DNA of 64,000 nucleotides from Escherichia coli (GTDB taxonomy: Bacteria; Pseudomonadota; Gammaproteobacteria; Enterobacterales; Enterobacteriaceae): NCBI RefSeq assembly GCF_965641715.1, contig NZ_OZ282453.1. One strand, written 5' to 3'. Below, piece after piece: positions 28,501 through 31,500 of this stretch (within the stretch, counting starts at the first letter, position 1; each line of letters starts with the position of its first letter). A program made the position numbers.

Positions 28501-31500
28501 CGCGAATTTTGACAGTTTTTGCATCCTGATCCCAAGTTACGTCATTTTTATAGACGACAGGATCGTGTTTAACCGGGGTATCGCCACCATCGTCTGGCGG
28601 CACTGGCGCATCACCGCCGTCGTCTGGAACTGGCGTATCACCGCCATCATCTGGTGGAACCGGCGTATCACCGCCGTCATCTGGCGGAACTGGCGTATCA
28701 CCGCCGTCATCTGGCGGAACTGGCGTATCTCCGCCGTCATCTGGCGGAACTGGCGTATCACCGCCATCGTCTGGCGGAACCGGCGTATCACCGCCGTCAT
28801 CAGGCGGAACTGGCGTATCACCGCCGTCATCAGGCGGAACTGGCGTATCACCGCCGTCATCTGGCGGAACTGGCGTATCACCGCCGTCATCTGGCGGAAC
28901 TGGCGTATCACCGCCGTCATCTGGCGGAACCGGCGTATCACCGCCGTCATCAGGCGGAACTGGCGTATCACCGCCGTCGTCTGGCGGAACAGGCGTATCA
29001 CCGCCATCATCCGGAACTGGGGAGTTATTATGGTGGTGATTGTCATCGTCACTTAAGGTATATATAGCAATTCCCGTAGCTATTGCAGCAAGACCTGCAG
29101 CTGCCCATGGTAAAACTGCACTATCTTTATTTTCTCTGCACTCCGCGGATAAATTTTCTAGCTGCTCTTTGCTCAGGGAATGAATATTTGCCGGACATGT
29201 TATCTTACTGGACTTACGTGTTTTTTCGGTTGAGTCGGGTATTGAAGTATCCGCAGCCCATGTCTGGCTACTTAACGCCATGGCAACACAAACAGACAAT
29301 AATTTTTTCCTTTGCATATAAAATTCCTTAGATCTAGACCGTGCGTAACAAGCCATGCAGAATTTGAAGATAAATCGTAGTAAATATTCATAGTGAAATA
29401 AGCAATAAAGAAATGCTTATATAATTCACAAAATCAATATTAAAATCAGGCAAGTAAAAGCATACAAAAAACACTTGATGGAATTATATTCCACAAAAAA
29501 CTCACTTCAATCTAAAAATTAACGACAAAAAACAAAAACTCACTAATAATTCATTGACGCTGCATATATATTTTGTGATTACATATATATTGGTAATGAT
29601 TTGTTATTTAAGGGAAGGATATATAAGGTTTTTGTAGAAATACCCACGGTAATTAAGCATGCTAACGTCAGTTTAAATACTGTAAAAGATCATTAATAGA
29701 TACATTTTGTAGCCAACTATAATTTATTTGCGCAACCATTTACCATTAATTCCCTGAACATATTGCCCCGACTTCGCGCGAGCAACAAGCTTTTGTCCAG
29801 CCAGTTTGGCTATCTCTTTAGTGGATACATTATTTTGCTTTGCCAGTTGTTGGTAACTATGGTTACGAGCTTCATTAATATCTTTTACTAATGCCTGTGT
29901 TTCGGCATCCGTTTGTAGCGCCACCAGGTAACCGTTAAGCGTTTCACCTACCCGCCCCTGACTTCTGGCTTCGTTCAGGGTTAAAGCCATTGCACTGTCG
30001 CTCATCAGGCCAATGGCCCATACAGCTATGAGTAATGTTCTTTTCATCATCACCTCAAAATAGATCGCTACGGGTTTTGAGCAGGTCTTCAACGTCCTTA
30101 TCCGCTTTAATGATGATTTCATGCTCAATTTTAACGTTCATATTAATGGTGATTGGCTCTTTCGGCGCAGCCACTTCAATGCGAGGCGTGCAACCAACCA
30201 ACATAAAAGAGGACGCAAACGCGGCTATCACTATTTTCATTGTTTTTCCTCACACTCTTTTCCTGATGGGCAGCCAGTTTCCGGTAGCTGGGCATTCTGC
30301 TCCAGCCATACCTGGAGATTATCGCCAAAGCGTAAACTGCGCCATAACGTAAAAATATTCTCTTCATGGTGATAATTAAGGTTTACCGTACCGCTTTTAC
30401 CATCGACGCGACTGGTGCCCGAAATGTTGGCCTGCATGGTTAACACACCGAGATTATCTAAATTAATCCTTGTTGATGAGCGACTGATTTCCATATAACG
30501 CAACCAGTTGATGGCAGTTCCAGCGGTCATATTGTCTTTGGCCACCGCATCTGCAGTGTCTTTATCCAGACGCAGCGTCATCGGCCCCGCGTTTGCCAAC
30601 CAGCCCTCTTTGACAATCCATTTTTCATTGTTCAGCCATAGTGGCAAGGCCCCACTGAATGCACCAGACATAGCAAATTGTTTCGGATTGACGGCGCTAA
30701 CCAGTTCGCTGGATGAGAGATTATTCAGCCGCAACAGCGCCGGGTCATGTTGCGGCATACGTAATTGTTTCATCAGCACGTTACCGCCTAACACATCGAC
30801 GCTAACATCAGTCAACAGCAATGGTTCTTCTTCAGTCCACGGATAACGCCCTTGCAAATCAGCCGTAATATTTTTCGCTGTCACCAGATTAATCACTTCG
30901 GCAATTCGCAACGTAACGGGGCCGCGAGTCCCAAGATGCCAGGCTCCATCGGCAAAACGGAAAGGCAGGACAAAATCGACACCGTTAACCTGATTATCTG
31001 GCATCCAGGCACTACCGCCTTTCAACACGCCGTGCCCTCCCGCGCGGAATCCTTGTTCAGGCGCAGCAGAAAATGCAACCTGAGCATACAGTTCACCATC
31101 GCGTAAGTTCATCTTCCAGTCGGGTGGCACCAGCGGCTGGAATACAGTCAGTGATTGTTTAGGCCACCAGGCGTTACCGCGCAGACGAATACCGTCCCAG
31201 CGACCATTTACCCGAACCGGGCCAATCTCACCAGCATGTAAATCGCCTTTAAAGAGGAAATACGTCGGATCGCGCCCATCGACGCTAAATTTTAAGGTTG
31301 ATGGCGGTAACACACTGCCGCCAGTGAACAGCGTTTGCCCGGCGTCCAGTGACAGCGCGCCGCTGAAGGAGGGATGCTGTGCGTCACGTACCCAGACGAC
31401 GGGCTTGTCGAGAATTAATCGCGGCTTTTCTACCGTCATCGTACCGTATTGTAACTGGTCGAAACCGGTGGAGAGATCGGTCAGCGTAATCGTGCTGTCA

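What the first reader, a model, noticed from the sequence alone, without database searches (positions are those of the whole stretch)
29318..29723. No feaRB-tynA-paa catabolic island between ydbL and ydbA
In K-12 the phenylethylamine/phenylacetate genes (feaR, feaB, tynA, paaZ-paaY) lie between ydbL and ydbA. Here the two genes are separated by only about 400 bp of very AT-rich sequence containing alternating TA runs. This strain therefore probably cannot use phenylacetate or phenylethylamine by that route, and the spacer is likely a nucleoid-protein-silenced ydbA promoter region.
Basis: partly seen in the sequence, partly recalled or inferred. Interest (0 to 1): 0.45.

Follow-up and report, generated by a model that had tools for sequence, protein, structure and literature searches.

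The report
Phenylacetate genes missing; locus borrowed
This E. coli chromosome lacks the 19-kb phenylethylamine/phenylacetate degradation genes between ydbL and ydbA, a common and already documented variant (also in O157:H7), and the gene-free version of the locus appears to have been copied in from a neighbouring Escherichia species by recombination.

Summary
On the minus strand, ydbL (29724-30047) is followed after 406 bp (29318-29723) by ydbA (start 29317). The spacer has 27% G+C, the lowest in the window, and holds four TA runs. No fea, tynA or paa sequence occurs anywhere in the 64 kb.

This is an ordinary, known polymorphism. The same junction is in 373 of 5426 complete E. coli genomes, including O157:H7 EDL933 and O55:H7. 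About 42% of E. coli genomes have no paa genes at all. Junction and paaK co-occur in at most 3 genomes, so this is absence, not relocation.

The idea that K-12 carries an insertion is not supported. The order ydbL-feaR-feaB-tynA(-paaZ) is shared with Citrobacter, Pseudocitrobacter, Raoultella, Pluralibacter and Cedecea.

Window ~23266-30677 (ydbA, spacer, ydbL, ynbE and the 3' end of ydbH) is a foreign haplotype. It is only 82% identical to K-12 there, but 99.5% identical to the unnamed species Escherichia sp. E1V33. The breakpoint at 30675/30678 is sharp; beyond it the window is 99% K-12-like and 87% E1V33-like. The island was most likely lost by allelic replacement.

ydbA is frameshifted here. 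H-NS silencing of the spacer is plausible but untested.

The parts
29318..29723 (-). ydbL-ydbA intergenic spacer (406 bp, 27% G+C). It takes the place of the 19.2-kb feaRB-tynA-paaZ-paaA..Y-ynbG segment of K-12.
   Evidence: It is 99.5% identical to Escherichia sp. E1V33 and about 68% to E. whittamii. It has no detectable homology to either K-12 spacer.
29483..29510 (-). Best sigma-70-like promoter candidate for ydbA: TTGAAG-16-TATAAT, 10 of 12 matches, about 165 nt upstream of the ATG.
   Evidence: It is largely conserved in E. whittamii (TTGAAC...TATATT) although the spacer as a whole is only 68% identical. This is a prediction only; the number of such sites does not exceed shuffles.
23365..29317 (-). 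ydbA (BigA/YdbA-type autotransporter) of the O157/E1V33 allele class. It is split into two ORFs, so it is a probable pseudogene.
   Evidence: Intact 1954-1962-aa versions exist in XJ34 and A30.
26633..26635 (-). Site of a 2-bp deletion (CTCTTTC to CTCTC) relative to A30, XJ34 and EDL933. The reading frame ends after codon 896, at 26627-26629.
28571..29011 (-). 30-bp tandem repeat, 14.8 copies, encoding PPDDGGDTPV repeats near the YdbA N-terminus. Copy number varies between strains.
   Evidence: In-frame indels of 27, 90 and 213 bp against other strains.
29724..30047 (-). ydbL (DUF1318), divergent allele. The protein is 73% identical to K-12 YdbL and 100% identical to E1V33 YdbL.
30055..30240 (-). 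ynbE lipoprotein gene, divergent allele (protein 90% identical to K-12).
30237..32876 (-). ydbH. Its 3' end, about 440 bp (30237-30677), belongs to the foreign tract; the rest is typical E. coli.
30675..30678 (.). Right recombination breakpoint. The last E1V33-type informative site is 30675 and the first K-12-type site is 30678.
   Evidence: E1V33-type at 201 of 207 sites left of 30700; K-12-type at 264 of 276 sites right of 30750. Same breakpoint in XJ34 and A30; 30693/30714 in EDL933.
23266..30677 (.). The whole divergent (introgressed) haplotype, about 7.4 kb. It corresponds to about 28.9 kb of K-12, including IS2 and IS30. The left limit is approximate.
   Evidence: identity to K-12 is 96-100% left of 23265, 78-94% in the ydbA 3' part, and unalignable from 25265. 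Also.

Best explanation
The window carries the island-free allele of the ydbH-ydbA locus, the same one found in E. coli O157:H7, O55:H7 and scattered other lineages. The genes for phenylethylamine oxidation (tynA, feaB, feaR) and phenylacetate degradation (paaZ, paaA-K, paaXY) are absent, not moved. The strain should therefore be unable to grow on these compounds by that route (inferred).

The absence is neither an in-situ deletion nor an unfilled insertion site. A segment of about 7.4 kb (3' end of ydbH, ynbE, ydbL, the AT-rich spacer and ydbA) has the sequence of a different Escherichia species, represented by Escherichia sp. E1V33. That species naturally has ydbL next to ydbA. Homologous recombination, with one crossover inside ydbH (shown) and the other at or just beyond the 3' end of ydbA (inferred), replaced the resident haplotype of about 29 kb. 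The catabolic genes were lost in the exchange.

The 406-bp spacer is the native ydbL-ydbA intergenic region of the donor lineage. It contains the ydbA ribosome-binding site and probably its promoter. Its composition makes H-NS binding likely (inferred, not shown). In this window ydbA is in any case disrupted by a 2-bp deletion.
For: Absence of the island.

Same junction elsewhere. It occurs in 373 of 5426 complete E. coli genomes, including EDL933, Xuzhou21, O55:H7 and A30. Ten further contexts of the identical YdbL protein all show ydbL-spacer-ydbA-pdxI.

Not relocated. The junction+paaK query gives 3516 places in 3513 genomes, and every listed junction-type record has a single place.

Foreign tract. 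Identity to K-12 is 72-92% over 29728-30727, then 98-100%. Identity to E1V33 is 97-100% over 28947-30660, then 82-93%. At informative sites the split is 201/207 against 264/276. In the tract tree the window groups with E1V33 (99.5%) alongside E. whittamii and E. albertii. In the flank tree it groups with K-12 (99.2%).

Direction of transfer. E1V33 versus E. whittamii is 87.5% in the tract and 88.6% in the flank. K-12 versus MOD1-EC7003 is 94.7% and 93.0%. Each allele is therefore congruent with its own lineage. E1V33 is a separate species at this locus: 87.7% in ydbH and 88.0% in ldhA-ydbK, and NCBI files it under unclassified Escherichia.

The island is ancestral rather than inserted. The order ydbL-feaR-feaB-tynA(-paaZ-paaA) is found in Citrobacter spp., Pseudocitrobacter, Raoultella, Pluralibacter and Cedecea/Enterobacter.

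Other paa-negative E. coli differ in kind. They carry deletion scars (feaR'-'paaY) or IS1 in a K-12-type haplotype.

Literature. The paa locus is described as a heterogeneous region between ydbH/ynbE/ydbL and ynbC (PMC4951805). paa is reported missing from the phylogroup B2 and E genomes of one strain panel (PMC5422975). tynA was negative in 28 of 28 O157:H7 isolates (PMC4640556).
Against: Only one E1V33 genome was available, and its contig ends inside the ydbA repeat. The donor's ydbA and the left breakpoint could therefore not be compared directly.

Among E. coli carriers the ydbA body differs by 2-8% while the flanks are about 99% identical. The history may therefore involve several imports or later recombination, not one clean event. 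EDL933's right breakpoint is shifted by three informative sites.

The rest of this strain's genome is unseen, so absence of paa genes genome-wide is inferred from relatives.

H-NS binding and promoter activity are not demonstrated. Promoter-like sites are no more frequent than in shuffled sequence.
Confidence: 0.8

Rival explanations
1. In-situ deletion: an E. coli ancestor of this strain simply deleted feaR-paaY from a K-12-type locus.
For: Deletions of this island are frequent in E. coli. About 950 genomes keep only a feaR 3' remnant fused near paaX/paaY. There are also IS1-mediated losses and an IS3-mediated loss in E. coli B (PMC3032704).
Against: No remnant of feaR, paaY or either K-12 spacer is present in the 406 bp. 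The flanking ydbL, ynbE, ydbH 3' end and ydbA are 18% or more divergent from K-12, with a sharp breakpoint. A deletion cannot produce that pattern.
Confidence: 0.04
2. Ancestral empty site: the window shows the original E. coli state, and K-12 later acquired the fea-tyn-paa island by insertion between ydbL and ydbA.
For: E. albertii, E. whittamii and E1V33 lack the island. The island is variably present within E. coli.
Against: The ydbL-feaR-feaB-tynA(-paaZ-paaA) synteny is shared by at least five other enterobacterial genera. There is no tRNA, no integrase and no flanking direct repeat. The K-12-type flank is the one congruent with the E. coli lineage, while the window-type flank is congruent with E1V33. 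Only 6.9% of E. coli genomes have the window type.
Confidence: 0.07
3. Opposite direction or third party: the haplotype arose in E. coli and moved into E1V33, or both received it from an unsampled lineage.
For: The 99.5% identity shows only recent sharing, not direction. Only one E1V33 genome was examined.
Against: In the tract, E1V33 is as distant from E. whittamii as it is in the flank (87.5% against 88.6%). The window, by contrast, jumps from 99.2% to 81.8% identity to K-12. It is the E. coli carrier whose tract is incongruent with its flanks.
Confidence: 0.08
4. Relocation: the paa, fea and tynA genes lie elsewhere in this genome.
For: Only 64 kb of the genome is visible. Three paa places in the collection are on plasmid records.
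Against: At most 3 genomes in the collection could combine this junction with paaK. Nothing is found in the window. O157:H7 isolates were tynA-negative by PCR (PMC4640556).
Confidence: 0.02

Closest known systems
The ydbL-ydbA locus of E. coli O157:H7 (EDL933, Xuzhou21) and O55:H7, which lack the K-12 fea-tyn-paa segment
   Same: Same gene order. The junction is 98.4% identical over 751 bp, with the same foreign ydbL/ynbE/ydbH 3' alleles and nearly the same breakpoint. ydbA is also split into two ORFs there.
   Different: The window is not an O157 strain; it is about 98.2-98.7% identical over the region. Its ydbA is broken at a different place (codon 896 against 1011). Repeat copy number differs. 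The right breakpoint differs by three informative sites.
Deletion-type paa-negative E. coli: strain S4 and similar genomes (feaR'-'paaY scar), IS1-mediated loss in NRZ96606, the 33-kb gap in CFT073, and IS3-mediated loss in E. coli B
   Same: The same catabolic genes are missing, with the same expected phenotype (PMC4640556; PMC3032704).
   Different: Those genomes keep K-12-type ydbL/ynbE/ydbH and show scars or IS elements. The window has no scar and a heterospecific haplotype.
K-12 paaY/ydbA 'promoter island' (Panyukov and Ozoline 2013, PMC3661553)
   Same: It is the AT-rich stretch immediately upstream of ydbA. The K-12 paaY-ydbA spacer is 330 bp at 25% G+C; the published promoter island there is listed as 385 bp. 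The window spacer is 406 bp at 27% G+C. The K-12 element is reported as H-NS-bound and transcriptionally silent.
   Different: There is no sequence homology beyond about 12 bp at the start codon. H-NS binding is not measured for this sequence. Promoter-like site density is not above a composition-matched expectation.
Interspecies homologous-recombination tracts between E. coli and other Escherichia lineages (a general phenomenon, from my own knowledge of the cryptic-clade literature)
   Same: Sharp breakpoints, tract and flank phylogenies that disagree, and near-identity to another species.
   Different: Here the imported allele removes a 19-kb metabolic gene cluster, so gene loss occurs by allelic replacement. 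I found no paper describing this for the paa locus, but the literature search was limited.

Membership tests
O157:H7-type island-free ydbL-ydbA locus | ydbL stop and ydbA start separated only by a ~0.4-kb spacer, with no fea, tynA or paa genes | tested here: met
   Spacer is 29318-29723.
O157:H7-type island-free ydbL-ydbA locus | Junction sequence homologous end to end with that of EDL933, Xuzhou21 and O55:H7 | tested here: met
   373 genomes cover at least 80% of 29150-29900 at 95-99.7% identity.
O157:H7-type island-free ydbL-ydbA locus | paa genes absent from the whole genome, not relocated | tested here: inconclusive
   Met for relatives (at most 3 possible co-occurrences). Only 64 kb of this genome can be seen.
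Introgressed (heterospecific) recombination tract | Abrupt change of identity to conspecific and to donor genomes at a defined breakpoint | tested here: met
   Breakpoint is at 30675/30678.
Introgressed (heterospecific) recombination tract | Phylogenetic incongruence between tract and flank | tested here: met
   the window pairs with E1V33 in the tract and with K-12 in the flank.
Introgressed (heterospecific) recombination tract | Second breakpoint identified against the donor | not testable with these tools
The left limit of about 23266-23365 is inferred from divergence to K-12 only.
Classical mobile genomic island / empty attachment site | tRNA or other att site, flanking direct repeats, and an integrase in island-bearing strains | tested here: not met
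   No tRNA in the window. Only short chance-level repeats are present. The K-12 island annotation has no integrase. The synteny is shared across genera.
H-NS-bound 'promoter island' / xenogeneic-silencing region | At least 300 bp of very A/T-rich DNA with A-tracts and H-NS-motif-like sites | tested here: met
   27% G+C. A/T tracts occur at 32 per kb against 10 per kb in the window. There are 4 motif-like sites against 1.35 +/- 1.14 in shuffles.
H-NS-bound 'promoter island' / xenogeneic-silencing region | Abnormally high density of promoter-like sites | tested here: inconclusive
   4 sites against 3.8 +/- 1.9 in dinucleotide shuffles. This simple scanner is not PlatProm, and the shuffles keep the A/T richness.
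H-NS-bound 'promoter island' / xenogeneic-silencing region | H-NS occupancy in vivo and low transcriptional output | not testable with these tools
   Only the non-homologous K-12 counterpart has published data (PMC3661553).

The most novel reading that the evidence does not exclude
The island-free ydbH'-ynbE-ydbL-ydbA haplotype carried by O157:H7, O55:H7 and scattered other E. coli (about 7% of complete genomes) is an introgression from an unnamed sister Escherichia species of the E1V33 type. On this reading, a whole aromatic-amine/phenylacetate catabolic pathway was lost by homologous allelic replacement rather than by deletion, and a heterospecific autotransporter allele (ydbA) came in at the same time. 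As far as my limited literature search shows, this origin has not been described for the locus.
Probability: 0.6. Interest if true: 0.35.

Novelty: already known. Interest (0 to 1): 0.2.

Why it matters
As stated, the finding matters little. Variable presence of feaRB-tynA-paa in E. coli, and its absence from O157:H7, are documented, and the metabolic consequence is predictable.

The added value is mechanistic. This class of paa-negative strains lost the pathway by importing another species' version of the locus, and ydbA, ydbL and ynbE alleles came with it. That gives a clean, datable marker of gene flow between E. coli and a poorly known Escherichia species.

It is also a caution for pan-genome analyses that score such loci as simple presence or absence, or as 'insertions' relative to K-12.

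Finally, it shows that the YdbH-YnbE-YdbL phospholipid-transport genes exist in two strongly divergent allele classes within E. coli (YdbL proteins 73% identical). That could matter to people studying that system.

Tried and rejected
- Rfam with a permissive E-value on 28800-30300 found no RNA family. Whole-window Rfam found only MicC, sok and RydC elsewhere.
- ARAGORN found no tRNA or tmRNA in the window, so a tRNA-linked island model was dropped.
- The spacer has only short ORFs (at most 39 aa) with no support. K-12's ynbG micro-ORF has no counterpart.
- Direct and inverted repeats in 29200-29800 are only 10-15-nt, chance-level matches. No target-site duplication or scar is present.
- The promoter and terminator scan was not enriched over shuffles. 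One candidate promoter was kept as a prediction only.
- blastn (word size 7) of the spacer against the K-12 island and both K-12 spacers gave no homology except at the ydbA start.
- I tried to identify the source strain. The best complete genomes are only about 99.0% identical over 23 kb, so no near-identical reference exists in the collection.
- I looked for a complete donor ydbA through exact-protein look-up of YdbL. All ten contexts returned had an E. coli background, so the left breakpoint against the donor stayed unresolved.
- A literature search for 'E1V33' gave no papers. A search on cryptic-clade introgression gave nothing specific to this locus.
- The region downstream of ydbL in Escherichia sp. 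MOD1-EC7003 (L010) holds IS-like fragments and is uninformative.
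Full report
**1. What is at the coordinates**

Reading the minus strand, the window encodes these genes:
- ydbH, 30237-32876
- ynbE, 30055-30240
- ydbL, 29724-30047 (107 aa, DUF1318)
- a large BigA/YdbA-type autotransporter gene, with its ATG at 29315-29317 and its stop at 23365

They match the RefSeq annotation of near-identical loci in E. coli XJ34, EDL933 and A30.

Its G+C is 27.2% (measured over 29319-29723) against 51.8% for the window. It is the lowest-G+C stretch of the whole 64 kb: only 0.08% of 405-bp windows are as low, and all of those lie here. It also holds 4 of the window's 11 alternating TA/AT runs.

K-12 MG1655 has 19,185 bp between the same two genes: feaR, feaB, tynA, paaZ, paaA-K, paaX, paaY and ynbG. 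None of these 18 proteins, and no part of the island DNA, has a match anywhere in the window. The only hit is the paralog aldA.

**2. How common and how well known it is**

A 751-bp probe across the junction is covered at 80% or more, at 95-99.7% identity, in 373 of 5426 complete E. coli genomes. These include O157:H7 (EDL933, Xuzhou21), O55:H7 and scattered animal and human isolates.

The K-12 paaA-K block is at least 80% present in 3103 genomes and entirely absent from 2255. The feaR-tynA block is complete in 3238 genomes. About 950 further genomes keep only a 50-312-bp feaR remnant.

A chimeric probe (704 bp of junction plus 700 bp of paaK) matched 3513 genomes at 3516 places, and every junction-type record listed had a single place. 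The junction and paaK are therefore essentially mutually exclusive, so this is absence and not relocation.

The literature already describes this:
- The paa locus is described as a region of heterogeneity between ydbH/ynbE/ydbL and ynbC (PMC4951805).
- paa is reported missing from the phylogroup B2 and E genomes of one strain panel (PMC5422975).
- E. coli B lost the cluster in an IS3-mediated event (PMC3032704).
- tynA was PCR-negative in 28 of 28 O157:H7 isolates, and a 33-kb gap is reported in CFT073 (PMC4640556).

As stated, the finding is already known.

**3. What the locus really is**

Aligning the window with K-12 does not reveal an 'insertion point'. To the right of 30727 the two are 98-100% identical. 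From 29728 to 30727 (ydbL, ynbE and the last ~440 bp of ydbH) identity falls to 72-92%. Beyond the ydbL stop codon nothing aligns. YdbL proteins are only 73% identical and YnbE proteins 90%.

On the other side, identity to K-12 is:
- 96-100% up to about 23265
- 78-94% through the 3' 1.9 kb of ydbA
- at noise level from 25265 onward

Weak similarity (71%) reappears only around the ydbA start and signal peptide. So a block of about 7.4 kb (~23266-30677) is a different haplotype from the ~28.9 kb that K-12 has in its place.

**4. Where that haplotype comes from**

A scan of one genome per species for YdbL relatives returned Escherichia sp. E1V33 with a 100% identical YdbL. NCBI places it in unclassified Escherichia.

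That genome is a different species at this locus: 87.7% identity to the window in the 5' part of ydbH and 88.0% across ldhA-ydbK. Yet it is 97-100% identical to the window from 28947 (where its contig ends) to about 30660.

Informative sites are those where K-12 and E1V33 differ. At these sites:
- left of 30700 the window is E1V33-type at 201 of 207
- right of 30750 it is K-12-type at 264 of 276

The switch falls between 30675 and 30678. XJ34 and A30 share this breakpoint, and EDL933 switches three informative sites further on (30693/30714).

Neighbour-joining trees disagree between tract and flank. In the tract the window pairs with E1V33 (99.5%), beside E. whittamii and E. albertii. In the flank it pairs with K-12 (99.2%).

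The direction of transfer can be judged from congruence:
- E1V33 versus E. whittamii is 87.5% in the tract and 88.6% in the flank.
- K-12 versus Escherichia sp. MOD1-EC7003 is 94.7% in the tract and 93.0% in the flank.

Each allele therefore fits its own lineage, and the E. coli carriers are the ones with a tract that disagrees with their flanks. The most economical reading is import from an E1V33-like donor into E. coli by homologous recombination.

**5. Is the island an insertion in K-12?**

No. The order ydbH-ynbE-ydbL-feaR-feaB-tynA is found in two Citrobacter species, Pseudocitrobacter, Raoultella and Pluralibacter, in several cases continuing into paaZ-paaA. The shorter order ydbL-feaR-feaB is found in Cedecea and Enterobacter sp. 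Protein identities there are in line with ordinary orthology.

E. albertii and E. whittamii have ydbL followed directly by pdxI. E. whittamii retains the spacer and the first ~100 bp of ydbA. The island-free state is therefore a derived loss in some non-coli Escherichia lineages, and one such version was later moved into E. coli.

There is no tRNA, integrase or flanking direct repeat.

Other paa-negative E. coli are of a different kind. They keep K-12-type flanks and show deletion scars (feaR'-'paaY) or IS1.

**6. The spacer itself**

It is the native ydbL-ydbA intergenic region of the donor lineage: 99.5% identical to E1V33 over window 29250-29800 and about 68% to E. whittamii. It has no Rfam match and no credible ORF.

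The best sigma-70-like site (TTGAAG-16-TATAAT, 29510-29483, minus strand) and the ribosome-binding site are conserved in E. whittamii. Promoter-like sites are, however, no more frequent than in shuffles.

Several features are typical of H-NS targets:
- A/T tracts at 32 per kb, against 10 per kb in the window
- four TCGATAAATT-like sites with at most 2 mismatches, against 1.35 +/- 1.14 in composition-matched shuffles

The non-homologous K-12 paaY/ydbA spacer (25% G+C) is one of 78 published H-NS-bound, transcriptionally silent 'promoter islands' (PMC3661553). Silencing is therefore plausible by analogy and composition, but it is not shown.

In this window the downstream gene is probably dead anyway. 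A 2-bp deletion at about 26634, relative to A30, XJ34 and EDL933, ends the frame after codon 896.

**7. Caveats**

- Only one donor-type genome was available, and its contig stops in the ydbA repeat. The left breakpoint is inferred from divergence to K-12 alone.
- Among E. coli carriers, the ydbA body differs by 2-8% while the flanks are about 99% identical. More than one import, or later recombination within ydbA, is likely.
- The source genome outside the 64 kb is unseen, and no complete genome is closer than about 99.0%.

**8. Verdict**

The absence is already known and ordinary. The heterospecific origin of the island-free haplotype is a tidy extra that I did not find described, but it is a familiar kind of process. 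Interest is low to modest.

Noticed in passing
window 28571-29011: A 30-bp tandem repeat (14.8 copies) inside ydbA encodes PPDDGGDTPV repeats. Copy number differs between strains, with in-frame indels of 27, 90 and 213 bp against A30, XJ34 and EDL933. It behaves like a VNTR, and it broke the E1V33 assembly.
   Followed up: partly
window 26627-26643: ydbA carries a 2-bp deletion (CTCTTTC to CTCTC) relative to three other strains. This splits it into ORFs of 896 codons (from the annotated ATG at 29317) and 1092 aa. It is either a pseudogene or a sequencing error. EDL933's copy is broken at a different place (codon 1011).
   Followed up: yes
window 39033-40166: ompN is 99.6% identical to A30's intact gene, with no indels, but has an in-frame stop at codon 227 (39711-39713). 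It is a probable nonsense pseudogene. EDL933's ompN is annotated as frameshifted.
   Followed up: partly
window 29724-30677; L003 11251-12207: The YdbH-YnbE-YdbL intermembrane phospholipid-transport genes exist in two very divergent allele classes within E. coli. YdbL proteins are 73% identical and YnbE proteins 90%. About 7% of complete genomes carry the heterospecific class.
   Followed up: partly
L055-L064 and L001, L004, L005 (ydbA bodies): Among E. coli carriers of the island-free locus, the middle and 3' parts of ydbA differ by 2-8% while flanking genes are about 99% identical. This suggests several imports or ongoing recombination or diversification in this surface protein.
   Followed up: partly
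L008 1-12785: A genome labelled E. coli SCPM-O-B-8794 is only 87% identical to K-12 in ydbH-ydbL. It carries a window-like ydbL (88% protein identity), yet its fea-tyn-paa island is 94.5% identical in nucleotides to K-12's. The island and its flank have different histories there too.
   Followed up: partly
L007 10322-10961; L009 5304-5472: E. whittamii keeps the AT-rich spacer and the first ~100 bp of ydbA but has lost the rest of the gene. E. albertii has ydbL about 170 bp from pdxI, with neither ydbA nor the island.
   Followed up: partly
window 38688-38808, 5150-5301, 5861-5924: Rfam gathering-score matches to MicC (minus strand, between ydbK and ompN as in K-12), to a sok antitoxin RNA and to RydC.
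   Followed up: no
window ~41900-64000: Lambdoid prophage genes (tail fibre, Lom, gpJ-like and others) lie at the position of Rac in K-12. They are only 85-94% identical to the corresponding prophages of A30 and EDL933.
   Followed up: no
L010 5410-7390: In Escherichia sp. MOD1-EC7003, which has the K-12-type ydbL allele, the DNA after ydbL holds IS-like transposase fragments and an unrelated 313-aa ORF instead of feaR. This is yet another configuration of the locus.
   Followed up: no
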